From positions 7,937 through 71,936 of the forward strand of contig CAZPVP010000001.1 in NCBI GenBank assembly GCA_964590345.1: a stretch of DNA of 64,000 bases. Reading direction: 5' to 3'. Position numbers and translations under genes: made by a program. The notes beneath the pieces are model-generated. The model saw nothing but the letters and a program-made list of their open reading frames with translations. It was not told where the DNA came from and made no database searches. Below, in pieces: positions 7,059-30,560 of this stretch. Position 1 is the stretch's first letter, and every line of letters begins with the position of its first letter. This DNA is from an uncultured Gammaproteobacteria bacterium. GTDB lineage: Bacteria; Patescibacteriota; Patescibacteriia; CAIXNZ01.

Positions 7059-8552
7059 TTATCTATGCAAAATATATTCGTAAATCAAATGAATAATAGA
7101 GCTTTTCGTTAACAAAGTAATTATCACACCTAATAGCATAAAAGGCGCAAAAGAAAAAGTTTTGTGCAAAATAATATGTTCAACCGGCGGATGTCCTTGG
7201 GCTTTAATTTCTTTATTTCTTTTTCTAATCATCTTTTTGATCTTCTCAGCCTGTTCCCGAGTCAATTTTCCGCGTAGGGATTTTATAAATATCTTAATCT
7301 CATTATTGTCACTTAAAATTAAATTTAACTGGTCTTTTTGTTCATTAGTTAATTTTTTTGTTATTTTATCAATTAAATCCTCCTCTGTTTTTTTATTTTT
7401 TTTATACTGATAAATATCTCTGATTAAAGAAGGCAAAGCATGAGGACTTAATCTTCTAAAAAATGAAATGAATTTATACTGCTTCCTATCCTGACTATCT
7501 TTTTTAGCTTTAATTAACTCCCAAAGGTGATCAAATTCTTCTTCTGGTAAAACATCTTTCACTTGTTTTTTAAATTTAGCAATATCCTTGTCAGTTTTAA
7601 AAATATCATTAAGTTGACTTTTGTTAATATATACTCCCGCCTGTAAATCATTGACTGGAATCATTCTCACTTCAGCTGAATTATAAAAAAATTGACCCAA
7701 CCTTTTACCATATTTAAAAATATAAAAAAATAACATCATAAATATCATTTGCAAAGCAAAAACTTTATGAAAATCTTCTATAATACTTTCATGAAAATAA
7801 ACTATTGTGCCAATAAAATATATTGCTATTAAAATTAAGGCAATAATTATTTTTTTTTGCAAAAATTGACGCAACGGACGAAAAATCAAAAACCCTATGA
7901 AGAAATATATAACATAAAAAAGATTACCTAAAAGTGGATCTAAAAAATTTTTAAACTTAGCTCTTATTAACTGAAATAAAATCAAAATTATTATAAAACT
8001 TAAACTAGTATATATGAATTCTTTAATTTTTATTTTATTTACTTTATGTTTTGATTTATAATTTTGAAAATATTTTTCAATTAATTTTGGTCTAAATAAA
8101 TAACTTACACCTAATTGGACTGGATACAATAACATTTTAATCAACAAATAAATAAAAATCGGCAAAATAATATTAATTAACAAGGTTAATGCAGGAAAAT
8201 ACTTAAAGTAAATAATGCCATAAAAACTAAAAGGAATTAAAAAAGCATAAAGTAAAAATAGCTTAGCATCACCACCTGACCAAAGTTTTAAATACCATAA
8301 GATAAAACCTAAAGCAAAAGCCAAACCAAAATTAGTTAATAAATATAAATAATCTAACCAATTAACTTCATATCTGGCTAATAATAAAATTATTAAAACT
8401 ACTATATTAATAACAGCTCCTAAAAATAAACCAATTTTTATCCATTTATTTTTAATTTTATTATACCTATAATCTTCGTAACAAACAATCAAGCCAATAA
8501 TTAAAACTATTAATATAAAAATATATACGATTACCTTGTTAAACAAAACCAT
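7059..8552 (-). CDS. A24-family prepilin-peptidase-like polytopic membrane protein with long charged C-terminal extension
   Basis: 497 aa; N-terminal multi-TM region containing LWSGGDAKLFLLYAF (GxGDxKL aspartyl-peptidase motif) and upstream YEDYRYNKIKN (first catalytic Asp context); last gene of the radical-SAM operon. Confidence 0.45.
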   Translation of the reverse strand: MVLFNKVIVYIFILIVLIIGLIVCYEDYRYNKIKNKWIKIGLFLGAVINIVVLIILLLARYEVNWLDYLYLLTNFGLAFALGFILWYLKLWSGGDAKLFLLYAFLIPFSFYGIIYFKYFPALTLLINIILPIFIYLLIKMLLYPVQLGVSYLFRPKLIEKYFQNYKSKHKVNKIKIKEFIYTSLSFIIILILFQLIRAKFKNFLDPLLGNLFYVIYFFIGFLIFRPLRQFLQKKIIIALILIAIYFIGTIVYFHESIIEDFHKVFALQMIFMMLFFYIFKYGKRLGQFFYNSAEVRMIPVNDLQAGVYINKSQLNDIFKTDKDIAKFKKQVKDVLPEEEFDHLWELIKAKKDSQDRKQYKFISFFRRLSPHALPSLIRDIYQYKKNKKTEEDLIDKITKKLTNEQKDQLNLILSDNNEIKIFIKSLRGKLTREQAEKIKKMIRKRNKEIKAQGHPPVEHIILHKTFSFAPFMLLGVIITLLTKSSIIHLIYEYILHR

Positions 8553-8556
8553 ACAA

Positions 8557-9441
8557 TTAAAATTTAACTGGTTTAATTATTTTTAAAACTGAATTATCAG
8601 AATCAACTTCAACAACATCGCCTTCAAAAAAATACTTATAAAAATTAATATTACTATAGATTAAAGGTTTTTTAATTTCTCGAAAAATCACTGCAACATG
8701 AGATGTATAACTATTTACTGGAGCAATAGTTGCCTTTACATTAATAAAATAAGGTAACAAATCCAAAGTTACTTTATTAATTAATAAAATATGATTCTTG
8801 AGTACTGCATCCTCTTTGTCAAACAGAAACTTAATTTCGCCAATCAAATTAGTATTTAAATTCATAATCTTTACAGGAATTTGCTTTTTAATATTCCTAC
8901 TATCATTAATCTCAGATAAAACTCTTAACATTTTTTCATCTTTATTTAATTTCGCAGATTCTAATATCTTTTTAATAACTCCTATATAACTTCCATAATA
9001 ATATGTTTTTCTTTGATAAGTAAAATTCCATTCATTTTTTATTTGTTGATATATATTTAATTGTTGAAATAATACATTTTTTATATTAATTAAATCACAT
9101 TCTTTTCTATATATATCAAATTTATCAGCAGGCAAAGAATAAATTTCAATTCGAGCATACTTTTTGACAAATTTCGCATATTCTTTAAAAAATTCAGAAC
9201 CATATGGAGGAATTAACTGCTCTTGATTTACAAATTCAACTTCCCAAGGAATTTTTGAATCTTTAATTAATATTTGGAATTGATTAAATTTATTATTTTT
9301 TAAAAAATAATAATCTTTAAAAAATAAACGGTTTTCAATAATCCAATCCTGATAACCAACCCCCCAACTATTAAGCATCTTATTCAAGCTTAATAATATT
9401 ACTTTAGTTTTATTTTCATTGTTTAAACTATTTAAAATCAT
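8557..9441 (-). CDS. hypothetical protein with C-terminal PEP-utilizing-enzyme mobile (phosphohistidine) domain-like segment
   Basis: C-terminal 60 aa VKATIAPVNSYTSHVAVIFREIKKPLIYSNINFYKYFFEGDVVEVDSDNSVLKI resembles PF00391 consensus (TSHAAIIARE..P....G..V.VDG). Confidence 0.35.
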   Translation of the reverse strand: MILNSLNNENKTKVILLSLNKMLNSWGVGYQDWIIENRLFFKDYYFLKNNKFNQFQILIKDSKIPWEVEFVNQEQLIPPYGSEFFKEYAKFVKKYARIEIYSLPADKFDIYRKECDLINIKNVLFQQLNIYQQIKNEWNFTYQRKTYYYGSYIGVIKKILESAKLNKDEKMLRVLSEINDSRNIKKQIPVKIMNLNTNLIGEIKFLFDKEDAVLKNHILLINKVTLDLLPYFINVKATIAPVNSYTSHVAVIFREIKKPLIYSNINFYKYFFEGDVVEVDSDNSVLKIIKPVKF

Positions 9442-9445
9442 AATT

Positions 9446-19905: not shown

Positions 19906-20086
19906 ATTTATTAAACAATAAACGCAAATTTTTTTTGAATATCCTTAAATATAAAACATCTACAATAATATATTCTTTTGCCAAATATGCCTTTAATTGT
20001 GAAATTCCCATGGGCAAAAAAGATCTATTATTGTCTATTAGATATTTAAATCCACCATTATAAATTAAATTTATTTTATTTTTCAT
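19829..20086 (-). CDS. small hypothetical protein between radical SAM genes
   Basis: 85-aa K/N-rich ORF, no Cys/His core; sits exactly in the gap between the two rSAM genes if the downstream paralog starts at about 19827. Confidence 0.3.
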   Translation of the reverse strand: MKNKINLIYNGGFKYLIDNNRSFLPMGISQLKAYLAKEYIIVDVLYLRIFKKNLRLLFNKFEMCKYYNIKNRFSWLLFKKNKNKN

Positions 20087-20088
20087 TG

Positions 20089-21171
20089 CTAATCTAAATT
20101 ATACAATTTTTTAAAAATAGTATTATTTTTTAATTTTTTAAAATAATTGAATAATATTTTATTAAAACTATATCGTAATTTTACTTGACTAGAATAAAAT
20201 CTCATAAAATTCAGGTTGTTATCCTGACAATAGATATATAAATCTATAGGACAAAATGGGACATTATTAAGATTAATTTTATTATTTAATTGTTTGATTT
20301 TCCTTTGCAAAAAATCAGCTTTATTAATCTCAATATTATCAGTTTTATTCAATTTATATTTTTCAAATAAACTCTTGTTGAACAAGCAACTTTGGCAAAG
20401 AAAAACATTTCCGTCATAATTAATTCTATATTTTTCACAATTTAATAATCTATGATTCTCATTATTTATTAATGATTCTAAATTAGTAATCTTAATGATT
20501 TTTTTATTTTTATTATCAACAAATAAACCAAAATAATCTTGCATTAAATTTTTAAAAAACCGTAAGCATTCTTTAATTTCATGATCCGACCAAAACTTAT
20601 AATTTTCAATGCCCAAATCAACGGCTTTAAATCCCATTTTATTAAAAAATAAAATATCTTTAGTTAATGAATTAAGATTATTGGGAGAAACAACTTTTGA
20701 AATAAATATTTTGGGAAAAATTGAAAAATCATTAAAATTTTTCAAATGTTGGGTAACCTGATCAAAGACTGATTTATTATTATTTTTAAATTTACGATTT
20801 TTATCATTTGTTTCCCTCTGTCCATCCAAACTTAAAATTATATTTAGATTTTCTTGAAGTAAATAATTCAAAATTTCATTATTAAACAAAGTACCATTAG
20901 TAATTAAACTGATTTCGTAATCAAAACCGACTTCGCTTTGCTTTTCTTTTATAAAAGAAACTAATTCCTGCAATTCTTTAAAAGAAAGTAAGGGTTCTCC
21001 GCCAGTAAAAGTAATAAATAAAAAGCTATTTTTATTTAAAAAATAGCTTAAATTTTCTTTTATTTTTTTTAGATTTATCTTATTGTTTTCTTGTTTTTTT
21101 ACATAACAATAATGGCAAGCCAAGTTGCACTTTGAATTTAAATGTATATATAAACTTAATTCTTTTTCCAT
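20089..21171 (-). CDS. radical SAM enzyme (HxsC-like position), with C-terminal Cys cluster
   Basis: 360 aa; CNLACHYCYV (Cx3Cx2C); FTGGEPLL; C-terminal CEKYRINYDGNVFLCQSC. Confidence 0.65.
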   Translation of the reverse strand: MEKELSLYIHLNSKCNLACHYCYVKKQENNKINLKKIKENLSYFLNKNSFLFITFTGGEPLLSFKELQELVSFIKEKQSEVGFDYEISLITNGTLFNNEILNYLLQENLNIILSLDGQRETNDKNRKFKNNNKSVFDQVTQHLKNFNDFSIFPKIFISKVVSPNNLNSLTKDILFFNKMGFKAVDLGIENYKFWSDHEIKECLRFFKNLMQDYFGLFVDNKNKKIIKITNLESLINNENHRLLNCEKYRINYDGNVFLCQSCLFNKSLFEKYKLNKTDNIEINKADFLQRKIKQLNNKINLNNVPFCPIDLYIYCQDNNLNFMRFYSSQVKLRYSFNKILFNYFKKLKNNTIFKKLYNLD

Positions 21172-21210
21172 ACATATCTTTTTCTAATTACCCCAAAATT
21201 AATTTTTCTT

Positions 21211-22101
21211 TTATTCCTCTTTTAAATATATAATATCAGTAGCATATTGACTATCAGTAAAACCTTCATAACAACATTGATTTAATTTATATTTTTCAAT
21301 AAATTGATTAATTTTTCTTGATTCAACTGCATTTTTAATATCCTTGCATATTTCATTATTACCATTTAAGTCCAAACATACAAATCTAGTTAAATCATCT
21401 TCAATCAAAGAACAATCGCTTAAATTTTCAATTAAATATAATGATAAATTATTCTTACAACTTTGGCTTGTCAAATCTTCTAATCTTGCTTCTTTTAAAT
21501 TAATAACCTTGGAACACCTTTCTTTTTCATCCTCTGAAGTTATAGCGAAACATGTATCATCCTGTACATTATCACAATATGATTCAGCAGCATAAATACC
21601 ACTTAACCATAAATCTTCACAATCTGGAGTTTTGGGTTGAACAACTTTATTTTCTTCACATATTTCTAAAAATCTATCCTTGTCATTTTTCTTCATAAAA
21701 TTCATGGCCGCAAAAACACCGACTTTCTTTTGACAATAACGTCTATTAGTACTACCTGGAAAATGATTATTAAAAACACTATTACATTCATCTAAAATAG
21801 CATTAGTATTATTTTTAATATTACAAAAAACATACAATTCCATTAAATAATAATAAGCTGCATAAGGCAGTTCAAGATTCTTAATATCCTGTAAATATTT
21901 ATTTTTTTCTTCAGTCTCTTGACGTGCTTTTTCTTCTTCTGTCAAAGGTGGCTGATTAATATTAGTTGGTTCTTTAGGTTGGTTAATTATTACTTCTGGC
22001 TCTAACTCAGCTGGAATTTTAATAAAAAAATATACTATTATGCCAACTAAAAGTATTAATATAATAATTATTAATATTAAGACAAAGATTGTTTTTTTCA
22101 T
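21211..22101 (-). CDS. membrane-anchored Cys-rich extracytoplasmic protein
   Basis: 296 aa; N-terminal TM (IFVLILIIIILILLVGIIVYFFI), Pro/Glu-rich linker, then about 20 Cys spread over about 200 aa. Confidence 0.5.
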   Translation of the reverse strand: MKKTIFVLILIIIILILLVGIIVYFFIKIPAELEPEVIINQPKEPTNINQPPLTEEEKARQETEEKNKYLQDIKNLELPYAAYYYLMELYVFCNIKNNTNAILDECNSVFNNHFPGSTNRRYCQKKVGVFAAMNFMKKNDKDRFLEICEENKVVQPKTPDCEDLWLSGIYAAESYCDNVQDDTCFAITSEDEKERCSKVINLKEARLEDLTSQSCKNNLSLYLIENLSDCSLIEDDLTRFVCLDLNGNNEICKDIKNAVESRKINQFIEKYKLNQCCYEGFTDSQYATDIIYLKEE

Positions 22102-22119
22102 AAAATCATTTATTAAAAA

Positions 22120-22524
22120 TTAGCACAATCCGACACCACTACTATGATGTCCATGAGAGCCATGAGAGCCATGAGAGCCATGAGAGCCATGAGAGCCATG
22201 AGAACCATGTGAACAATGTGAACCAACATTACCGTCATTATGAACAAAATTATTATGGCCATGCTGTCCCGTGTTCATTGGATTATTCCCAGCCTTCGTA
22301 CAATCACCATCTCCTGCTACATTTCTACAGCCAGGAATATTATTGGTTCCGTTTGTACCTCCTGAATCACAAGCCGGGACTGCTGCTTCTGCTTCTTCAG
22401 CTAAAATCCCTAAAGCAGTCACGCCAATACCAAGCATAATAATATCTTTTTTAGTTATTTTGCCCTCTTCATCATTTAAAAATTCATTAAATTTTTTCTT
22501 TAATTTCGGTAATTTATTTTTCAT
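22120..22524 (-). CDS. His-Xaa-Ser repeat protein, candidate RiPP precursor (HxsA-like)
   Basis: 134 aa; charged N-terminus, hydrophobic segment IIMLGIGVTALGILA, Gly/Asn/Cys-rich middle, C-terminal HCS-(HGS)x6-HGHHSSGVGLC. Immediately downstream of the SPASM rSAM gene. Confidence 0.6.
   Translation of the reverse strand: MKNKLPKLKKKFNEFLNDEEGKITKKDIIMLGIGVTALGILAEEAEAAVPACDSGGTNGTNNIPGCRNVAGDGDCTKAGNNPMNTGQHGHNNFVHNDGNVGSHCSHGSHGSHGSHGSHGSHGSHGHHSSGVGLC
22136..22205. repeat. perfect 9-bp tandem repeat (CCATGAGAG)n, about 6 copies plus 2 degenerate, coding the HGS repeats
   Basis: catgagagccatgagagccatgagagccatgagagccatgagagccatgagaaccatgtgaac read directly. Confidence 0.85.
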
Positions 22525-22551
22525 AAGTATTTGATTTTATATTAATTTATT

Positions 22552-24054
22552 TTATTTTTTAAATTCTTGAGTTCTAGATTTTCTTACCCATTCAGTAAAT
22601 ATATCTTTATTTTTACGATTTTTAAGCTTTTTAAACAAATATTCCACAATTGCCTCATCTATCTTATATTTTACATTATTTTTGGCTGCAGGGAAAATAT
22701 TATTATAAACAGAATAATTATAAACCGGGCAAATTCCTAAATATGGCTGATAAACATTTTGCTCATAAGCTGGCTGGCCATTAGAGCAAGAGGCTAGACA
22801 AATTGATTTGCATAAATCATTATTAATTAATTGCTCAAGATTATTTTCATTAATATTGCCAAGCTTAAACATGTCATCACCCATTCTGGCAATCATCCTG
22901 CCTTCATCACAAGTATAAACATCGCCATTATAATTATAAGCTAGCTGGCCAATACCAGCCCCGCAGGGAGAGCGCATATCCAAATTATTATAATCCTTAT
23001 TAAATAAAATTTTTGTTAAATAAGTTATTGCTGTAGCTTCAGAAAATAATCTGCCCTTATAATTTTTTTCCAATATATAATCAAGTGATTTTTTATAAAA
23101 ATTAATATATTCTTTTGGCGTATACCAAATTTTTTCTTTTGCTTTAACAGCAAAACCATAAGGATTTAAATAACGCAAATAAATATTTTTAAAGCCCAGT
23201 TTAATATAAGCATCTATTACTTTTTTATAATTTTCAAAAGTCTTTTTTGTGATTGTAATCAATGCGCCCACTCTGTAATAATTTCTTTTTTTGCCTTTAT
23301 ATTTTTCCTTATAAGCCTGATTAATCTTTTTTATCCATTTGGCTGTCTGCTGCCAGCTATTGCCGTGCAAAAAAACACGGTTGTAATTATGAGTTTCTTC
23401 GTCGCCATCCAAAGATGTGCAGAAATTAACTTCATTATCCATTAAAAATTTCATTTTCTTTTCATCAAGCAAACTAAAATTGGAAACCAACCTGATTTGC
23501 AAATCTTTTTTTTCTAATTTATTTTTCTCCCTTGAATAATCAACAATAAATTTAACTATGGGCCAGTTTAATAATGGCTCGCCGCCCTGAAATTCAATGG
23601 CAACCGCATTATTATTGGTTTTAAAAATAGTGTCAACTATTTTCTTGGCAGTAGCCATGTCCATATCCAAACTGTTGTCTTGTGCCTCGCCAGCGCTGGC
23701 ATGGCAGTAAATGCACTTATGATTGCAGCGCAAAGTTACCACAATAATATGAAGTGACGGGCCAAATTTTAAAAAATCATTTTTTTGCCTAAAGCCCTCA
23801 ATCAATTGATTTTGATAATTTTCATCTTTAATGAACAGATTATCTTTTAATTCCTGATATGTCTTATTTTTTTTTGTTAATTTGCCGGTTATGAATTTTT
23901 TAAAATCTTTTTCATCAATAAAAACATATTTGCCAACATCATTGGTTAATAAATAAGTATTTTTATCAAACTTTTTAAAGCGGAAAAATCCGACTTTTTT
24001 GGTATCTAACTTGTTGATGGTTTTTAGGTCTAGCATATTATCGCAAATGGCCAA
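22552..24054 (-). CDS. radical SAM/SPASM-domain peptide-modifying enzyme (HxsB-like / anaerobic-sulfatase-maturase-like)
   Basis: 500 aa; about 100-aa N-terminal extension, then CNHKCIYCHA (Cx3Cx2C), FQGGEPLL, C-terminal SPASM Cys pattern (CGAGIGQLAYNYNGDVYTCDEG ... CKSICLASCSNGQPAY...GICPV). Confidence 0.7.
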   Translation of the reverse strand: MAICDNMLDLKTINKLDTKKVGFFRFKKFDKNTYLLTNDVGKYVFIDEKDFKKFITGKLTKKNKTYQELKDNLFIKDENYQNQLIEGFRQKNDFLKFGPSLHIIVVTLRCNHKCIYCHASAGEAQDNSLDMDMATAKKIVDTIFKTNNNAVAIEFQGGEPLLNWPIVKFIVDYSREKNKLEKKDLQIRLVSNFSLLDEKKMKFLMDNEVNFCTSLDGDEETHNYNRVFLHGNSWQQTAKWIKKINQAYKEKYKGKKRNYYRVGALITITKKTFENYKKVIDAYIKLGFKNIYLRYLNPYGFAVKAKEKIWYTPKEYINFYKKSLDYILEKNYKGRLFSEATAITYLTKILFNKDYNNLDMRSPCGAGIGQLAYNYNGDVYTCDEGRMIARMGDDMFKLGNINENNLEQLINNDLCKSICLASCSNGQPAYEQNVYQPYLGICPVYNYSVYNNIFPAAKNNVKYKIDEAIVEYLFKKLKNRKNKDIFTEWVRKSRTQEFKK

Positions 24055-24077
24055 TGGCTTATGGCAAATGGTTATAA

Positions 24078-24431
24078 CTAATTTAAAATTGATTTTTTAA
24101 AAGCTTTAATCTTTTTTATTAAAATTTCAGCATTTATATACATGTTATCTTTTTCTGACTCACAAATATATCCTTTTATCTTCGCGAATATTAAAATATT
24201 AATTGTTTCATAAATTGAATTAATTGCAATATTCAAATATCTGCAGAATATTTTATTTGAATCAGAACCGCTACCTTCAACAATATTATTTGCTATTGAA
24301 ATAGCTGATCGTCTTAATTGATTCGCCAAAGCGAATAATTCATAATCAGGAAATTGTTTAGCTAAGTCATAACAATTATTAGCGTAATTTATAGATAATT
24401 TCCAAATTTCTAAATCTTCAAATCTAAACAT
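24078..24431 (-). CDS. four-helix-bundle protein (23S rRNA intervening-sequence protein family)
   Basis: MFRFEDLEIWKLS...FPDYE..LANQLRRSAISIANNIVEGSG matches the TIGR02436-type signature. Confidence 0.7.
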   Translation of the reverse strand: MFRFEDLEIWKLSINYANNCYDLAKQFPDYELFALANQLRRSAISIANNIVEGSGSDSNKIFCRYLNIAINSIYETINILIFAKIKGYICESEKDNMYINAEILIKKIKAFKKSILN

Positions 24432-24456
24432 ACTATTTGCTATAGGCTATTTGCCA

Positions 24457-24657
24457 TTAGCTAAGTAAGCCAAGCACATAATTGGCAAACTCGTCATCCA
24501 AAATATCTTTCACTTCCTTGTCAATTTTATTCATTTTAACCTCTATATAACCGTTTGTTTCTTTTACTTTAAAATCAGCTAAATTTTTAAATTCTTCAAC
24601 TGCTTGTTTCACAGCTTCTATATTATATATCTTTTTATTGAATTTGATAATGTCCAT
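24457..24657 (-). CDS. small hypothetical protein
   Basis: 66-aa ORF. Confidence 0.3.
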   Translation of the reverse strand: MDIIKFNKKIYNIEAVKQAVEEFKNLADFKVKETNGYIEVKMNKIDKEVKDILDDEFANYVLGLLS

Positions 24658-24756
24658 TGTTTGTTATTTGAAATTTAAAGGTTGAAATTTACTTGTAATT
24701 TGCCTTTGCAAACCACAGTTTGCTATGGCAAACAAAGGTTTGTAATTTGATATTTG

Positions 24757-25236
24757 TTATTTTTTCTTTTTATTCTTTTTTTTGCTCTTTTTATTCTCGT
24801 CAGCCAAATTTTGTTCTTCCCAGGTCTTGGCAATGCCCAAAGGATCTTCCTGCCAATCCTCTTCTTCTACTTCTTTTAAAAGCTCGGCAACTTCATTTGG
24901 CACTGCGCTGTAAAGCGCCTGTGAAACAATATATTCTCTTATTTTGGCATTGGTTTGGCTGATTTTTTCGCGCAACAATTGATTTAAAAGTTCATTATAA
25001 AACTCGCCGGCTATTTTTTCCAGTTCTTCTTTCCTTTTTTCCTCTTTTTGCCCTTCTTTCCTTTTCATAATTACCTTAATCTCTTTTTTCGGATCACCAT
25101 CAAGAAAAACATATACTTTATCCAAAAACAAATAAGCGGCTTGGTAAATAGCTGTTAACGGATATATTTTGGTATTTATTTTAAATTCTATTTTTTTATC
25201 TCTTATTTTAAAATTAAAATCTTTATTTTGTGACAT
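24757..25236 (-). CDS. hypothetical protein with lysine-rich C-terminal tail
   Basis: 159-aa ORF. Confidence 0.35.
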   Translation of the reverse strand: MSQNKDFNFKIRDKKIEFKINTKIYPLTAIYQAAYLFLDKVYVFLDGDPKKEIKVIMKRKEGQKEEKRKEELEKIAGEFYNELLNQLLREKISQTNAKIREYIVSQALYSAVPNEVAELLKEVEEEDWQEDPLGIAKTWEEQNLADENKKSKKKNKKKK

Positions 25237-25306: not shown

Positions 25307-26206
25307 CTAATTTTCTTCTTTTGCCTTGCAGCAAACCATGCTCGCTTCTGTACCGTCACCATAAACATCAAGATCAAAAACAAAATATCCATCGGGGCAA
25401 CAAGATAGCTGATCACCGCCACAAGCAATTTCTGCTTGATCACTGCTTCTTTTATTGGTTTTTGCATTAGCAATATCATCAGTAATATCCCAAGTTTCTA
25501 CTGTGCAAAACTTATTACCATCTAAAGTAATAAGTTCTTCAACATTAGCTGTGCCGCCTGAAGTAATTGTAAATTGATTATCACCGCCAACAACTAATTC
25601 TGTCTCGCCTGAAAACAAATTAAAACTATCAGCCAAAACTTTGTCCACATAAATAGTATTGGGGGAAGGATTAGGAAAATTATTCATAAAAATTAAGCCC
25701 GCATCATTAACTATAAAATTTTTCTTCATGATTATTTTATCACTCTTTAATTCCAAAGCCCCAAACTTAGCTGAAATTCTAAAATCACTAAATGGACTTG
25801 TCACAGTAATAGTATTAGTCTTTAAAAAACTCTCGCCTGACAGCTGGTGGACAGCCATTTGCCTTGTTGGATTACTTTCATCAGTTGTAAAAATTCCGGC
25901 GGGATCTAAAAATATCAAATTATTGGAAACAGCGAAAAAAGCAGTGCTTTCACTACCCTCATCGCCTTTTAAAGCTTCGTGCCAGACGCTGTTAGCTGTT
26001 TCACAATCGTTTTGGTTAATATAAGAGGGATCTTCACAATAGCCGGACAAAGCATCGCCAACCAAAATATAATCGCCGTCTGTTTTTAAAGTTGAATCAA
26101 TTAAAAAACTATTATATCTTGAATCATAATTAAAACTTGCCCAAGCCACTGACGCTGAAAGCATAAAAACAGCCATAATTAAACAAATTTTGTAAATTTT
26201 GCTCAT
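25307..26206 (-). CDS. secreted hypothetical protein (paralog family A), C-terminal Cys-rich motif
   Basis: Signal peptide MSKIYKICLIMAVFMLSASVAWA; C-terminal CGGDQLSCCPDGY...MVCC. Confidence 0.45.
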   Translation of the reverse strand: MSKIYKICLIMAVFMLSASVAWASFNYDSRYNSFLIDSTLKTDGDYILVGDALSGYCEDPSYINQNDCETANSVWHEALKGDEGSESTAFFAVSNNLIFLDPAGIFTTDESNPTRQMAVHQLSGESFLKTNTITVTSPFSDFRISAKFGALELKSDKIIMKKNFIVNDAGLIFMNNFPNPSPNTIYVDKVLADSFNLFSGETELVVGGDNQFTITSGGTANVEELITLDGNKFCTVETWDITDDIANAKTNKRSSDQAEIACGGDQLSCCPDGYFVFDLDVYGDGTEASMVCCKAKEEN

Positions 26207-26260
26207 TTTTCTTAAATTAAAATCATAAAAAAGTAAAAAACATCAATTTACTAAAATCAG

Positions 26261-27136
26261 CTAAGGAATAGCGGGGCAATTTTCATTATTAAAACCATCA
26301 ACACACAAATAACAACAAATGGTCGTCGCCCCTGTCCCTTTCAAGCCATCCCAATTCCAATCAATTTCTCCGTCAAGACTCTCATATTCTTTTTGGGCAT
26401 AGAAATCCTTACCGCCATTTGCCTCACCGCATTTACCATCAATAGATCTCCAGCATAAATTCTGATTAGCTAAAGCATCATCTTCCGTACCCAAATCTAT
26501 TTCTTCAAAAGTCAAATGTGACGGCTCAAATTCAATTTCATTTTCATCTAAACTCGTTAAACTCGTTAAATATAATTTTTCTGTTTTTAAATTAGCTGGC
26601 TCAGGACAATTTTCAGTGCCGTCATTAACAAAACAACCGTCTATTCTTGTTTTTGCCACTCTCACTGGATCATTAGTGATTATTTCTTGGCCTGATGACA
26701 ATTTTATTGTTGGTGTCTCGGTTGCGGTTGCTATTATTTTTTCAACCCTTAATTCATATAAATCATAAGTCTCAGTAGTAATTGCTTTTAAACCTAAATC
26801 AGACTCCGGATACCAGATAAGCACCTTGTTTTCACAATCTGTGTTTTTAGGCAAATTTGTCTGCGGATATCTTTCATCTTTGCAAAAATAAAATTTTGAA
26901 TCTTTATCCAAAACAAATTTTTCTTCCACTAAAACATCACCGAATAAAGCATTGAGGTTTTCTGAAAAAGACTCTTCTACAATCAGATATCCATTAATAT
27001 ATAAACTGTCCAGAATAAAAAACTCATTATCTTTTTCTATAAAATAACCTTTGCCCTGAGCCAAAACAAAATCACCGATTACTAAAGTTAAAGCAATCAA
27101 ACAAAGCAAAAAGGAAATTTTATAAACTTTTGTCAT
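26261..27136 (-). CDS. secreted hypothetical protein (paralog family A)
   Basis: Signal peptide MTKVYKISFLLCLIALTLVIGDFVLA; C-terminal ICCYLCVDGFNNENC; internal 10-bp duplication coding LTSLTSL. Confidence 0.45.
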   Translation of the reverse strand: MTKVYKISFLLCLIALTLVIGDFVLAQGKGYFIEKDNEFFILDSLYINGYLIVEESFSENLNALFGDVLVEEKFVLDKDSKFYFCKDERYPQTNLPKNTDCENKVLIWYPESDLGLKAITTETYDLYELRVEKIIATATETPTIKLSSGQEIITNDPVRVAKTRIDGCFVNDGTENCPEPANLKTEKLYLTSLTSLDENEIEFEPSHLTFEEIDLGTEDDALANQNLCWRSIDGKCGEANGGKDFYAQKEYESLDGEIDWNWDGLKGTGATTICCYLCVDGFNNENCPAIP

Positions 27137-27137
27137 T

Positions 27138-27821
27138 TTATTCTATTTTGGATTTATCAATATAAATTATTCTTTGAGGATTAAAAATCGCTCCCTCACT
27201 AAATCTTAATTTAGGCAAATATAAGCTATCATCTCTGTCCGGATTATTTGTCACGAGATTAACTCTTAAAGAATTAACAAAAACACTGTCACTATCTTCT
27301 TCATCTGTAACCAGATCAGAAACCACCAAATTATTGCTTTCTGCATCAATGCCAGTACAAGTTTCAGTATTGATATCCGGGCTTGACGGACATAAAATTA
27401 ATGAATTAGTATCCAAAATAACAGGATCGCCATTTAAATCAATATTGGTTGTTTCTGAAATAAGATTAATAGAATCACCCTCAACATTATCTATCTCTAA
27501 AAAAGTATTTCCGCCTATATCACCTATAACTGCCTGGCAATTAAATTCTTGGGGATAATTAGGGCAATTAAAACCCATCAAGTGTCGTACATAAAGGTCT
27601 TTGTCCATAACTTTAATGATTCCATGCTCAACTGTCTCTGTATCATTAATACCAAACTCAGATATTTTTAAACCACTGCCTGTCTTTCTTACATTATCCC
27701 AAATTATAACTTTATTATTATCTTCAAAACTAATAAAACCGGCTGCCTGAACAAGCAAAACACTGCCAACTAATAAGATGGCTGAAAATAAACAAATTTT
27801 AAAAACCTGATTTAATTTCAT
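27138..27821 (-). CDS. secreted hypothetical protein (paralog family A)
   Basis: Signal peptide MKLNQVFKICLFSAILLVGSVLLVQA. Confidence 0.45.
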   Translation of the reverse strand: MKLNQVFKICLFSAILLVGSVLLVQAAGFISFEDNNKVIIWDNVRKTGSGLKISEFGINDTETVEHGIIKVMDKDLYVRHLMGFNCPNYPQEFNCQAVIGDIGGNTFLEIDNVEGDSINLISETTNIDLNGDPVILDTNSLILCPSSPDINTETCTGIDAESNNLVVSDLVTDEEDSDSVFVNSLRVNLVTNNPDRDDSLYLPKLRFSEGAIFNPQRIIYIDKSKIE

Positions 27822-30177: not shown

Positions 30178-30560
30178 TTAATTAACGATTCTGCGGTATT
30201 TAATTCCTTTTTTATTGAAAATTATTAATATCCCTAATTTCAAATTTTTTGCTTTTAAGTATCCCAAAACTTGTTTTATGTCTCGCGTATAAAATCCGTT
30301 CGCTATTTTTAATTCAACAATAAGCTTATCTTCAACAACAAAATCTAAAAAGTATTTGCCAATTATTTTTTCATTATAAATAAGTTTTACTGGACATTCT
30401 ATTTTATAAGCAATTTTCTCTTTTTTTAAACTCTTCAGCCAATGCTCGCTGATAAATCTTTTCACGATAACCAAATCCTAATTCATTAAATGATTTATAA
30501 ACACAACCAATTATCTTATAACTTAAATCTTTATAAATCAATTCCCCCATAAAAATTAGT
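30178..30560 (-). pseudogene. GxxExxY-family protein gene disrupted by a frameshift in a poly-A(7) tract
   Basis: N-terminal part (ATG at 30558-30560: MGELIYKDLSYKIIGCVYKSFNELGFGYREKIYQRALAEEFKK, contains GYREKIY) is in a different frame from 30178..30474 (…KEKIAYKIECPVKLIYNEKIIGKYFLDFVVEDKLIVELK). Junction is the T7 run at 30421-30427. Intact paralog at 45347..45745. Confidence 0.6.

What the first reader, a model, noticed from the sequence alone, without database searches (positions are those of the whole stretch)
22120..22524. Candidate precursor: (HGS)x6-8 C-terminal repeats encoded by perfect 9-bp DNA microsatellite
The 134-aa protein ends ...SHCSHGSHGSHGSHGSHGSHGSHGHHSSGVGLC and is encoded by (CCATGAGAG)n at 22136-22205. 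His-Xaa-Ser periodicity matches the HxsA concept. There are about 7 intact HGS units and 7 short tandem rSAM paralogs downstream, an intriguing numerical coincidence. The in-frame 9-bp repeat is also a natural substrate for slipped-strand copy-number variation, which would give repeat-number heterogeneity without frameshift. The upstream part has six Cys and a Gly/Asn-rich segment (PACDSGGTNGTNNIPGCRNVAGDGDCTKAGNNPMNTGQHGHNNFVHNDGNVGSHC) that could hold additional modification sites.
Basis: partly seen in the sequence, partly recalled or inferred. Interest (0 to 1): 0.8.

Follow-up and report, generated by a model that had tools for sequence, protein, structure and literature searches.

The report
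His-Gly-Ser repeat precursor, expanded HXS cluster
This small gene really does encode a His-Gly-Ser repeat protein that is the likely substrate of a radical-SAM "His-Xaa-Ser" maturation system, here in an undescribed enlarged form with ten radical-SAM enzymes and its own membrane protease in a tiny candidate-phyla-radiation bacterium.

Summary
The 134-aa ORF at 22120-22524 (-) is real. It ends in HCS-(HGS)6-HGH-HSS-GVGLC. The 9-bp repeat lies at 22151-22209, not 22136-22205, and is perfect for 53 nt.

The ORF sits directly downstream of a bona fide HxsB and two HxsD-family genes. It belongs to a family of about 1,170 cluster representatives of short proteins. These share a strongly conserved basic leader, a signal-like hydrophobic helix, and a C-terminal HxS tract.

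It is an HxsA analogue, not a canonical HxsA. TIGR03979 gives no hit, the HxsA2/3/4 models score below cutoff, and there is no peptidoglycan-binding domain.

The cluster spans 7059-25236. It holds ten radical-SAM domains: HxsB, one SPASM-like enzyme, seven divergent short HxsC-like paralogs, and one rSAM-HD fusion. It also holds a FlaK-like GxGD protease, which recurs in related clusters across phyla.

Two close relatives carry 7 and 9 HGS units encoded with mixed codons. The window has five identical codon triplets, so a recent slippage event is supported.

The "7 repeats / 7 enzymes" link is not supported. Repeat number and rSAM number do not correlate across 36 loci.

Function is inferred: an exported, rSAM-modified His-rich envelope protein. 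Whether it acts in antiphage defence, like the E. coli HXS system, is unproven.

The parts
22120..22524 (-). Precursor: 134-aa HxsA-like His-Xaa-Ser repeat protein
   Evidence: ORF. Sub-threshold HxsA4 and HxsA3 hits. 230 homologues. Orthologues at the same position in L007 and L008.
22384..22524 (-). Bipartite leader, aa 1-47: a conserved basic helix (PKLKKKFNEFLNDEEGKITKK), then a 15-residue hydrophobic segment and an Ala-rich AEAA end
   Evidence: The motif is present in 156 of 171 precursors, with F 100%, E 99%, L 96% and KK 87-96% conserved. The AF2 model has helices at 6-17 and 25-47 and the rest disordered. The region matches the N-terminal part of NF038309 HxsA3.
22138..22218 (-). HxS tract, aa 103-129: HCS-(HGS)6-HGH-HSS
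   Evidence: Read directly from the sequence. The homologous tract is conserved across the family.
22151..22209 (.). 9-bp microsatellite, CCATGAGAG on + (CAT GGC TCT on -)
   Evidence: TRF gives 6.6 copies at 98% matches. Base-by-base reading. Probability of five identical triplets from codon usage is about 1e-5.
22552..24054 (-). HxsB, radical SAM/SPASM maturase
   Evidence: TIGR03978 scores 499.8 bits against a cutoff of 370. Pfam Radical_SAM and SPASM hits. The CX3CX2C motif is at residue 110.
24457..24657 (-). HxsD-like small protein
   Evidence: NF038315 scores 76 bits against a cutoff of 41.
24757..25236 (-). HxsD
   Evidence: TIGR03976 scores 64.5 bits against a cutoff of 50. It contains ELLNQLLRE, which resembles the LLNDYxLRE motif quoted in PMC13128918.
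21211..22101 (-). Single-pass membrane protein with a 14-Cys extracytoplasmic region, a positional partner of the precursor
   Evidence: No family hit. The only detectable homologue is in L007. A TM plus Cys-rich protein of 263-346 aa lies next to the precursor in L001-L005.
20089..21171 (-). 360-aa radical SAM enzyme with a SPASM/twitch-like Cys-rich C-terminus (best match PapB-type)
   Evidence: NF047865 scores 127 bits, below its cutoff of 340. CX3CX2C motif at residue 15. Orthologue in L007.
19829..20086 (-). Remnant of the N-terminus of a B12-binding radical SAM gene
   Evidence: It matches L007:14001-15407, a 468-aa protein with B12-binding and Radical_SAM domains.
14243..19905 (-). Six contiguous short HxsC-like radical SAM paralogs: 18967-19905, 17829-18974, 16892-17827, 16018-16899, 15104-16021 and 14243-15100
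   Evidence: Best hits are TIGR03977 HxsC (59-100 bits, cutoff 268) and HxsC4 (up to 128 bits, cutoff 500). All keep CX3CX2C and a C-terminal CxxCx5C. They are 24-34% identical to each other.
12996..14246 (-). 416-aa glycosyltransferase-like protein
   Evidence: Weak Glycos_transf_1 hit, 20.8 bits against a cutoff of 26.4. A GT9 gene sits in a similar place in L088.
12122..13009 (-). Seventh HxsC-like radical SAM paralog, the most widely conserved type
   Evidence: HxsC4 scores 153 bits and HxsC 90 bits, both below cutoff. It is 57% identical to L002:15303-16214. Clear orthologues occur in 30 loci.
9446..12115 (-). 889-aa fusion: HxsC-like radical SAM domain, HD domain and an uncharacterised C-terminal region
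   Evidence: Pfam Radical_SAM and HD hits. HxsC4 and HxsC hits cover residues 16-179. PDB 2pq7 HD hydrolase matches.
8557..9441 (-). 294-aa protein with a PEP-utilising-enzyme mobile domain
   Evidence: PF00391 scores 27.9 bits against a cutoff of 23.1.
7059..8552 (-). 497-aa FlaK-like GxGD aspartyl intramembrane protease (peptidase A24 family), candidate leader peptidase

Best explanation
The ORF encodes the substrate (an HxsA analogue) of an enlarged His-Xaa-Ser type maturation system. The host is a Parcubacteria/Buchananbacteria-like candidate-phyla-radiation bacterium.

Proposed mechanism:
1. The 47-residue N-terminus is a bipartite leader. A strongly conserved basic helix probably docks the cytoplasmic maturases (HxsB with HxsD and HxsD-like). 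A signal-peptide-like hydrophobic helix with an Ala-rich end directs export.
2. In the cytoplasm, HxsB, a SPASM-like rSAM and seven old, mutually divergent short HxsC-like rSAM enzymes modify the disordered core. The rSAM-HD fusion also takes part. Their main target is the HCS-(HGS)6-HGH-HSS tail. The enzymes perform different chemistries or successive steps rather than one enzyme per repeat.
3. The leader is then removed. The agent is the cluster's FlaK-like GxGD protease and/or signal peptidase I. A His-rich, modified product of about 87 residues ends up at the cell envelope or outside.
4. The 9-bp microsatellite is a recent slipped-strand event. It changes tract length in frame, and tract length is evolutionarily plastic in this family.

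Shown:
- gene identities;
- family membership of HxsB and HxsD;
- conservation of the leader;
- repeat-number differences between relatives;
- recurrence of the protease in the clusters.

Inferred:
- that the peptide is modified, and where;
- export;
- who cleaves the leader;
- biological role. By analogy with E. coli HXS this could be an envelope barrier against phage, at roughly 30%. Metal binding or a surface or host-contact role are equally open.
For: - HxsB and HxsD score above their curated cutoffs, and the precursor lies 27 nt downstream of hxsB.
- The precursor family has 230 word-indexed hits and 1,168 representatives at E<=1e-3 (186 at E<=1e-10).
- 228 of 249 family members carry the leader motif and 224 of 249 carry tandem HxS.
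- The same gene order occurs in Patescibacteria, Omnitrophota and Elusimicrobiota: HxsD, small HxsD-like, HxsB, precursor, a TM/Cys-rich protein, then many rSAM genes. A Woesearchaeota locus has a partly similar cluster.
- One member is already named HxsA4 by NCBI.
- All nine non-HxsB rSAM domains keep CX3CX2C. The seven short ones also keep a C-terminal CxxCx5C.
- Paralogs C7, C3 and C2 have separate orthologues in 30, 18 and 16 loci.
- AF2 models the precursor as two N-terminal helices plus a disordered core.
- HGS unit counts are 6 (window), 7 (L007) and 9 (L008). HxsB is 78% and 73% identical in those two relatives. Their units use mixed codons, whereas the window has five identical triplets.
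- In canonical HXS, the rSAM enzymes and HxsD are needed for N-terminal processing, a +8 Da modification inside an HxS repeat, and export (PMC13128918).
Against: - No biochemical data exist for this variant.
- The precursor scores below the cutoffs of every HxsA model and does not hit TIGR03979.
- None of the seven paralogs reaches the HxsC or HxsC4 cutoffs. They also lack the roughly 105-residue N-terminal domain of canonical HxsC.
- The HGS repeats carry no Arg or Lys. The mature part has 1 K, 1 R and 4 D. The electrostatic DNA-binding model proposed for E. coli HxsA therefore does not transfer directly.
- There is no peptidoglycan-binding domain.
- The cluster lies among housekeeping genes (CysS, DnaJ), not in a recognisable defence island.
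- An archaeal class III signal motif, as I recall it, is found in only 14 of 229 leaders and not at the expected boundary. Cleavage by the FlaK-like enzyme is therefore unproven.
- A24-like genes were seen in only 14 of 45 leader-type loci. Most loci are cut off 10 kb downstream, so this is a lower bound.
Confidence: 0.75

Rival explanations
1. One enzyme per repeat. Each of the seven short rSAM paralogs modifies one particular HGS unit, so the matching count of about seven is functional.
For: The window has seven short HxsC-like paralogs and 6-8 HxS units.
Against: - Across 36 loci with at least 9 kb visible downstream, repeat number and rSAM number do not correlate (rho -0.26, p=0.13). Counts are equal in 3 of 36.
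- L008 plus L088 (the same contig) has 9 HGS units and eight non-HxsB rSAM genes. L007 has 7 HGS units, orthologues of the window's paralogs, and extra rSAM genes.
- Identical HGS units offer no local sequence by which an enzyme could tell them apart.
- The paralogs are ancient, at 24-34% identity, while the repeat count changed recently.
Confidence: 0.03
2. The mature product is mainly a metal-binding peptide or protein (for Ni, Zn, Cu or Fe capture or buffering at the surface), not a phage barrier. The rSAM modifications tune or rigidify the His ligands.
For: - The mature part has 13 His in 87 residues, strict H-x-x periodicity, and several Cys including a C-terminal one.
- L007's version of the cluster contains a DUF364 "putative heavy-metal chelation" protein.
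- The repeats have no basic residues for DNA binding.
- The cluster sits in a housekeeping neighbourhood.
Against: - The only experimental datum for any HXS system points to antiphage defence (PMC13128918).
- No metal transporter or metal regulator was seen inside the cluster.
- DUF364 is absent from the window.
Confidence: 0.25
3. The precursor is a pilin- or archaellin-like protein with a class III-type signal. The FlaK-like protease cuts between the basic leader and the hydrophobic helix. The helix is kept as a membrane anchor or filament core, and the modified HxS tail is displayed.
For: - A FlaK-fold GxGD protease with invariant catalytic Asp residues recurs inside these clusters.
- The leader is basic and is followed by a hydrophobic helix.
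- The residue at the leader/helix boundary (offset +17) is G, A or S in 97% of members. K or R sits two positions earlier in 64%.
Against: - The hydrophobic stretch is only about 15 residues and is followed by an Ala-rich, AxA-like stretch typical of signal peptidase I sites.
- A class III motif with a charged residue at -2 is not met, with 14 of 229 matching and those at other offsets.
- No pilus-assembly ATPase or platform gene was noted inside the cluster.
Confidence: 0.2
4. The ORF is a low-complexity artefact, or the real gene is on the other strand.
For: The + strand frame through the repeat reads (HES)5. The exact 134-aa sequence is absent from the 15-billion-protein collection, although two neighbouring proteins tested (the downstream TM protein and the C7 paralog) are present.
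Against: - No + strand ORF of 60 aa or more covers the repeat.
- Hundreds of homologues share a non-repetitive conserved leader.
- Position next to hxsB is conserved.
- In relatives the HGS units differ by synonymous changes only.
Confidence: 0.01

Closest known systems
Canonical HXS (His-Xaa-Ser) system hxsD-hxsB-hxsC-hxsA of Pseudomonadota (TIGR03976-03979). Predicted in silico by Haft and Basu (as cited in PMC9062424). Shown to be an antiphage system that blocks DNA entry (Li et al. 2026, PMC13128918).
   Same: - HxsB and HxsD are true family members.
- The substrate carries tandem H-x-S repeats and an N-terminal export-type signal.
- HxsC-like rSAM enzymes with a C-terminal auxiliary Cys motif are present.
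- In the canonical system the rSAM enzymes and HxsD are needed for N-terminal processing, modification inside an HxS repeat, and export.
   Different: - The substrate is 134 aa. It has no peptidoglycan-binding domain and no similarity to Aeromonas HxsA outside the H-x-S motif. Its repeats are HGS, not basic HRS/HSS. They lie at the C-terminus.
- It has a 28-residue conserved basic leader that is absent from the Aeromonas HxsA examined.
- The gene order is D, D-like, B, A, then the rest, rather than D-B-C-A.
- Instead of one 400-aa HxsC, there are seven short paralogs lacking its N-terminal domain. There is also a SPASM-like rSAM and an rSAM-HD fusion.
- The cluster has a second HxsD-like protein, a TM/Cys-rich partner and a FlaK-like protease.
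- The hosts are Patescibacteria, Omnitrophota, Elusimicrobiota, Myxococcota and DPANN archaea. The paper reports 99.7% of HXS systems in Pseudomonadota.
NCBIfam variant models HxsA3 (NF038309), HxsA4 (NF038313), HxsA2 (NF038296), HxsC4 (NF038332) and HxsD_rel (NF038315). These are curated but, as far as the searchable literature shows, unpublished.
   Same: - The leader matches the N-terminal part of HxsA3, and the tail matches HxsA4.
- HxsD_rel is met above its cutoff.
- An Omnitrophota homologue of the precursor is annotated HxsA4.
- The paralogs' best hits are HxsC and HxsC4.
   Different: The window's precursor scores below all three HxsA-variant cutoffs: 42.3 against 55, 39.2 against 65, and 14.1 against 48. 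Every paralog is far below the HxsC4 cutoff, the best being 153 against 500.
Radical SAM/SPASM RiPP pathways with leader-dependent maturases (for example PapB ranthipeptides and SCIFF)
   Same: - The organisation is a leader plus a disordered core.
- A SPASM maturase lies next to the precursor.
- HxsB and the 360-aa rSAM give their next-best matches to PapB, Nif11 and SCIFF maturases.
   Different: - The core is protein-sized (about 87 aa) and dominated by H-x-S repeats, not Cys motifs.
- The number of rSAM enzymes (ten domains) is far above that of typical RiPP clusters.
- No ABC/C39 exporter was seen. A signal-like leader and a GxGD protease are present instead.
FlaK/PilD (peptidase A24) with class III signal peptide substrates
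   Same: A FlaK-fold GxGD protease with both catalytic Asp residues is encoded in the cluster. The substrate has a basic leader followed by a hydrophobic helix.
   Different: - The leader is long (28 aa) and highly conserved.
- The boundary motif does not fit the class III consensus.
- The protease carries a roughly 330-residue extension that FlaK lacks.

Membership tests
His-Xaa-Ser (HXS) system | HxsB radical SAM/SPASM maturase (TIGR03978) present and adjacent to the substrate gene | tested here: met
   22552-24054 (-) scores 499.8 bits against a cutoff of 370. It ends 27 nt upstream of the precursor's start codon.
His-Xaa-Ser (HXS) system | HxsD (TIGR03976) present | tested here: met
   24757-25236 (-) scores 64.5 bits against a cutoff of 50. 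An HxsD-like protein (NF038315) scores 76 against 41.
His-Xaa-Ser (HXS) system | HxsC radical SAM maturase (TIGR03977), or its variant HxsC4 (NF038332), above the curated cutoff | tested here: not met
   The best paralog scores are 100.4 bits (cutoff 267.9) for HxsC and 153.1 bits (cutoff 500) for HxsC4. The paralogs are 23% identical to Aeromonas HxsC and lack its N-terminal domain of about 105 aa.
His-Xaa-Ser (HXS) system | HxsA (TIGR03979), or a variant HxsA2/3/4 model, above the curated cutoff | tested here: not met
   TIGR03979 gives no hit at E<=10. HxsA4 scores 42.3 against 55, HxsA3 39.2 against 65, and HxsA2 14.1 against 48. BLASTP against Aeromonas HxsA finds nothing.
His-Xaa-Ser (HXS) system | Substrate carries tandem His-Xaa-Ser repeats | tested here: met
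   The tract is HCS, 6 x HGS, HGH, HSS in register.
His-Xaa-Ser (HXS) system | [quoted passage not shown] | tested here: not met
   The order is D, D-like, an inserted four-helix-bundle gene, B, A, then a TM protein and the rSAM array. Pfam finds no domain in the precursor except a weak collagen-repeat artefact.
His-Xaa-Ser (HXS) system | rSAM-dependent covalent modification of an HxS repeat, and an antiphage phenotype | not testable with these tools
   This needs mass spectrometry and phage assays. It is known only for the E. coli system.
Leader-bearing short HxS precursor family (the HxsA3/HxsA4 type) | Conserved N-terminal motif [LFI]-P-K-[IL]-K-K-x-[IL]-x-x-F-L-x-S-E-E-G-K-I-x-K-K, followed by a hydrophobic segment | tested here: met
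   The window reads LPKLKKKFNEFLNDEEGKITKK, then IIMLGIGVTALGILA. The motif occurs in 156 of 171 and 228 of 249 family members.
Leader-bearing short HxS precursor family (the HxsA3/HxsA4 type) | C-terminal HxS tract ending in an aromatic residue or in GWC | tested here: inconclusive
   The tract is present. The C-terminus is GVGLC, which resembles the GGWC class (26 of 249 members end in GWC) but has Leu in place of Trp. 47% of members end in W.
Class III (prepilin/prearchaellin) signal peptide | Charged residue at -2, Gly or Ala at -1, then a hydrophobic helix. The consensus is recalled from Szabo et al. 2007 and was not checked against the paper. | tested here: not met
   The pattern occurs in 14 of 229 leaders and at other offsets. 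The boundary residue is G, A or S in 97%, but the charged residue sits at -3.
Peptidase A24 (GxGD aspartyl intramembrane protease), for ORF 7059-8552 | Two catalytic Asp motifs and a FlaK/PilD fold | tested here: met

The most novel reading that the evidence does not exclude
The enlarged HXS cluster makes a new class of protein-sized, multiply rSAM-modified, surface-displayed His-rich product in ultra-small bacteria and archaea (CPR, DPANN, Omnitrophota). The product is released or anchored by a dedicated FlaK-like GxGD protease. The length of its HxS array is tuned in frame by microsatellite slippage. This would make it a length-variable envelope component used against phage or in contact with the host cell. 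It would also be mechanistically distinct from the electrostatic DNA-trap proposed for E. coli HxsA.
Probability: 0.25. Interest if true: 0.8.

Novelty: new variant of a known kind. Interest (0 to 1): 0.6.

Why it matters
- The HXS system was predicted in 2011. Its first function was reported in 2026, and only for the four-gene proteobacterial form.
- This window holds a much larger form, with ten radical-SAM domains in about 18 kb. The host genome type usually has very little spare coding capacity.
- The same design recurs in Patescibacteria, Omnitrophota, Elusimicrobiota, Myxococcota and DPANN archaea.
- It offers a simple, repetitive, easily synthesised substrate, (HGS)n, for working out what HxsB and HxsC-type enzymes do chemically. 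That chemistry is still unknown.
- It also shows that the published picture does not cover the family. That picture is 99.7% Pseudomonadota, four genes, a basic DNA-binding effector and a peptidoglycan anchor.
- The FlaK-like protease gives a testable candidate for the unexplained "non-canonical" N-terminal processing of HxsA-type proteins.

Tried and rejected
- **Locating the source record.** Exact-sequence look-ups of the window's HxsB, TM protein and A24 protease gave no contig. The proteins exist in the collection on one 214,542-bp NCBI contig, but without name or accession. The precursor itself, and two alternative-start versions (one of the precursor, one of HxsB), are not in the collection.
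- **Strain variants with other repeat numbers.** A metagenome scan used both flanks with a variable gap of 36-66 nt. It gave 0 hits, so population-level heterogeneity could not be tested.
- **Homology of the TM/Cys-rich partner to its positional equivalents.** phmmer, an iterated HMM and the 5.8-billion-protein search found only L007 and the protein itself.
- **Diversity-generating retroelement idea.** This was prompted by the Avd-like four-helix-bundle gene between hxsD-like and hxsB. No template/variable repeat pair was found, so it was rejected.
- **PADLOC scan.** It gave only generic radical-SAM similarity to viperins, which is not informative.
- **Promoter and terminator scan.** It is uninformative in this 32% GC sequence.
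- **Accessory genes compared with L088.** Pairwise comparisons of the rSAM-HD fusion and the GT-like gene with the APH and GT9 genes of L088 found no similarity. The accessory genes are not the same in the two clusters.
- **Literature search for HxsA2/3/4 and HxsC4.** It gave 0 papers.
Full report
**Observation.** The minus-strand ORF 22120-22524 starts with ATG and encodes 134 residues. It ends in ...NVGSHCS-(HGS)6-HGHHSSGVGLC.
- Tandem Repeats Finder reports a period-9 array at 22151-22209, with 6.6 copies, 98% matches and score 111.
- Read base by base, CCATGAGAG (+ strand; CAT GGC TCT on the coding strand) is perfect for five full copies plus 8 nt, at 22151-22203. A sixth copy has one mismatch.
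- There are six HGS units rather than seven, and five Cys rather than six.
- With the codon usage of 31 ORFs of the window (His CAT 0.80, Gly GGC 0.38, Ser TCT 0.23), five identical HGS triplets in a row have probability about 1e-5. The DNA identity is therefore not a by-product of codon bias.

**The reading frame is real.**
- The + strand frame through the repeat would read (HES)5, but no + strand ORF of 60 aa or more covers the repeat.
- The minus-strand protein has 230 homologues at E<=1e-3 in the word-indexed search.
- A profile of 33 members finds 1,168 cluster representatives at E<=1e-3, and 186 at E<=1e-10, among 1.84 billion proteins.
- The homologues are 80-180 aa proteins built the same way.

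**Neighbourhood.** All the following genes are on the minus strand.
- 24757-25236 is HxsD (TIGR03976, 64.5 bits, cutoff 50).
- 24457-24657 is an HxsD-like protein (NF038315, 76 bits, cutoff 41).
- 24078-24431 is an inserted four-helix-bundle gene.
- 22552-24054 is HxsB (TIGR03978, 499.8 bits, cutoff 370).
- The precursor follows, 27 nt downstream of hxsB.
- 21211-22101 is a single-pass membrane protein with 14 Cys and no family.
- 20089-21171 is a SPASM-like rSAM whose best match is PapB-type.
- Six contiguous short rSAM genes occupy 14243-19905.
- 12996-14246 is a GT-like gene.
- 12122-13009 is a seventh short rSAM.
- 9446-12115 is an 889-aa rSAM-HD fusion.
- 8557-9441 is a PEP-utilizer mobile-domain protein.
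- 7059-8552 is a peptidase A24-like membrane protein.
- CysS and other housekeeping genes follow.

The short rSAMs hit HxsC or HxsC4 best, but far below cutoff: at most 100 bits against 268, and at most 153 against 500. All keep CX3CX2C and a C-terminal CxxCx5C. They are only 24-34% identical to one another. The cluster therefore has ten rSAM domains.

**Origin.** The window is 32% GC.
- The closest HxsB relatives are a MAG contig labelled Gammaproteobacteria (L007, 78% identity) and a Candidatus Buchananbacteria contig (L008, 73%).
- Buchananbacteria belong to the Parcubacteria group of Patescibacteria.
- L008 together with L088 covers the whole Buchananbacteria cluster. It ends, as here, with the A24-like gene followed by CysS and a methyltransferase.

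**The family and its leader.** An anchored alignment of 156 precursors gives the following consensus:

KKx[LFI]-P-K-[IL]-K-K-x-[IL]-x-x-F-L-x-S-E-E-G-K-I-x-K-K-D-x-x-K-[IL]-G-x-G-L-x-x-L-G

- Conservation is F 100%, E 99%, L 96%, P 90% and KK 87-96%. An Ala/Ser-rich stretch follows.
- AlphaFold2 with the family alignment models helices at residues 6-17 and 25-47. The rest is disordered (mean pLDDT 56).
- Of 249 family members, 228 carry the leader motif and 224 have tandem HxS. The median in-register run is 5 and the maximum 29. 47% of members end in Trp, and 26 end in GWC.
- The window's GVGLC end resembles the GGWC class.

I read the first 47 residues as a bipartite leader. The first part is a recognition helix for the maturases. 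The second is a signal-peptide-like h-region with an AxA-type end. Both functional roles are inference from sequence conservation and from the canonical system. There, the signal peptide, N-terminal processing and export all depend on HxsB, HxsC and HxsD (PMC13128918).

**Conserved architecture.** The same arrangement is found in Patescibacteria (L001, L002), Omnitrophota (L003) and Elusimicrobiales (L005, L006). It consists of HxsD, a small HxsD-like gene, HxsB, the precursor, a TM/Cys-rich protein beside it, and five to nine further rSAM genes. A Woesearchaeota locus (L004) holds a related cluster with two precursor copies, but no HxsB or HxsD was seen in the region fetched.
- Among the best 80 of at least 585 HxsB-positive genome loci, most have a leader-type precursor directly after hxsB.
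- Some Myxococcota versions lack the leader but keep HCS-(HGS)n-W.
- Three of the window's paralogs have their own orthologues elsewhere, defined as a best hit of at least 120 bits with a margin of at least 30 bits over the other paralogs. The C7 type occurs in 30 loci, the C3 type in 18, and the C2 type in 16.
- The paralogs are therefore old and specialised.

**The numerical coincidence.** I counted HxS units and non-HxsB rSAM domains in 36 loci with at least 9 kb visible downstream of hxsB.
- Spearman rho is -0.26 (p=0.13), and counts are equal in 3 of 36.
- L008/L088 has 9 HGS units and eight non-HxsB rSAM genes.
- L007 has 7 HGS units, orthologues of the window's paralogs, and additional rSAM genes.
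- The counts come from windows cut off 10 kb downstream, so they are lower bounds.
- Nothing supports one enzyme per repeat. Identical units also give an enzyme no local handle to tell them apart.

**Slippage.** The three close relatives share the flanks HNN[FY][IV]HN..G[ST]HCS, and in two of them also HGHHSSG. They differ in unit number: 6, 7 and 9.
- In L007 and L008 the units use mixed synonymous codons (CAT/CAC, GGT/GGC, TCG/TCC/TCT/TCA). The protein repeat is therefore old and maintained by selection.
- The window's five identical triplets point to a recent duplication by slippage in this lineage.
- Other members show recent higher-order duplications, for example a 36-nt unit repeated three times in L003.
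- Direct read-level heterogeneity could not be tested. A metagenome scan for the two flanks with a variable gap found nothing.

**The protease.** ORF 7059-8552 passes the Pfam A24 threshold (27.9 against 26.5).
- It has the two catalytic Asp motifs, EDYRYNKIKN and SGGDAKLF.
- Both are invariant in the 19 full-length of 21 cluster-linked homologues (two are truncated before the second motif) and in 23 database homologues.
- Its AF2 model has pLDDT 73 overall and 80-90 over the first 110 residues.
- Homologues lie on the same strand, inside or at the end of the rSAM arrays, in 20 loci from Patescibacteria, Omnitrophota, Elusimicrobiota and others.
- L001 has a Pfam A24 gene next to its array, though on the opposite strand.

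This makes the protease a candidate for leader removal, but the assignment is inference only. The boundary residue before the hydrophobic helix is G, A or S in 97% of members. However, the class III consensus as I recall it is not met. An AxA-type signal peptidase I site is an equally good reading.

**Comparison with the known system.** Li et al. (PMC13128918) report the following for E. coli hxsD-B-C-A:
- It blocks phage DNA entry.
- HxsA (214 aa) has a signal peptide, five basic HxS repeats and a peptidoglycan-binding domain.
- HxsB, HxsC and HxsD are needed for N-terminal processing, a +8 Da change on SHRSS, and export.
- 99.7% of systems are in Pseudomonadota, and more than 99.8% have exactly four genes.

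An Aeromonas plasmid example (L087) confirms this layout. The window differs in four ways.
- Its precursor has no similarity to that HxsA beyond the H-x-S motif.
- It has no peptidoglycan-binding domain.
- Its mature part has only one K and one R.
- Its HxsC-like enzymes lack the roughly 105-residue N-terminal domain of HxsC.

The electrostatic DNA-trap model therefore does not carry over as such. NCBIfam already holds models for variant components (HxsA2, HxsA3, HxsA4, HxsC4, HxsD_rel), and one Omnitrophota homologue is annotated HxsA4. No paper in the searchable library mentions these variants. The window's precursor and paralogs all score below those cutoffs.

**Verdict.** The slippage idea is supported by comparison with relatives. 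The repeat-to-enzyme count is coincidence.

What is there is a member of a widespread, curated but unpublished and uncharacterised, enlarged variant of the HXS system. The chemistry installed by the ten rSAM domains, the cleavage site and the biological role remain unknown. Candidate roles are a phage barrier, metal binding, or surface or host contact.

I rate the identity and general mechanism at about 0.75. An antiphage role I put at about 0.3.

Noticed in passing
window 24078-24431 (-): A four-helix-bundle protein (TIGR02436, 95.6 bits; the Avd / 23S-rRNA-IVS protein family) is inserted between the hxsD-like gene and hxsB. It is absent from that spot in L007 and L008. No template/variable repeat pair exists in the window, so it is not part of a diversity-generating retroelement here.
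   Followed up: partly
window 19829-20086 (-), compared with L007:14001-20736: An 85-aa ORF is the N-terminal remnant of a B12-binding radical SAM gene that is intact (468 aa) in L007. Relative to L007 the window also lacks a DUF364 "heavy-metal chelation" gene, a PLP-dependent decarboxylase and a 458-aa rSAM. The cluster has apparently been trimmed in this lineage.
   Followed up: partly
window 25307-27821 (-): Three consecutive genes encode proteins of 299, 291 and 227 aa with signal-peptide-like N-termini and no family hit. They lie just upstream of hxsD and are conserved in the same position in L007 and L008 (E 1e-44 to 1e-53). They may or may not belong to the system.
   Followed up: partly
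window 8557-12115 (-): A PEP-utilizer mobile-domain protein (294 aa) lies next to an 889-aa rSAM-HD fusion whose C-terminal 350 residues are uncharacterised. In the Buchananbacteria cluster (L088) the equivalent region holds a 596-aa rSAM, a GT9 glycosyltransferase and an APH-type kinase. This hints at phosphorylation or glycosylation steps, but the genes are not homologous between the two clusters.
   Followed up: partly
L001 (GCA_020631575.1) and proteins P0004, P0005, P0011, P0013, P0018, P0020, P0033: These precursors come from organisms that read UGA as a sense codon. Table 11 gives in-frame stops in L001. The many Trp residues in the database translations (for example SHWSHGSHGSHWS) are probably Gly, which would restore regular SHG repeats.
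   Followed up: no
L004 8594-11217 (Woesearchaeota, GCA_019322485.1): The precursor and its 263-aa TM/Cys-rich neighbour are duplicated in tandem as a pair. This argues that the two genes work together.
   Followed up: no
L067 20256-20975: A 239-aa family member carries 51 in-register HxS units. This is the longest tract seen.
   Followed up: no
window 22120-22524, database look-up: The exact 134-aa precursor sequence is absent from the 15-billion-protein collection, although two neighbouring proteins from the same 214,542-bp NCBI contig (the downstream TM protein and the C7 paralog) are present. The gene may have been left uncalled in the source annotation.
   Followed up: partly
window 30178-30474 (-): A 98-aa ORF looks by eye like a GxxExxY-type small protein. 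With the four-helix-bundle gene, it would be a second member of the gene families often found as inserts in CPR genomes. It was not scanned.
   Followed up: no
phage collection hits H9 (MT837156.1) and H10 (KF114877.1, Leptospira phage LE1): HxsB homologues (37% and 32% identity) occur on a human-gut phage fragment and on a Leptospira phage/plasmid. This is odd for a system reported as antiphage.
   Followed up: no
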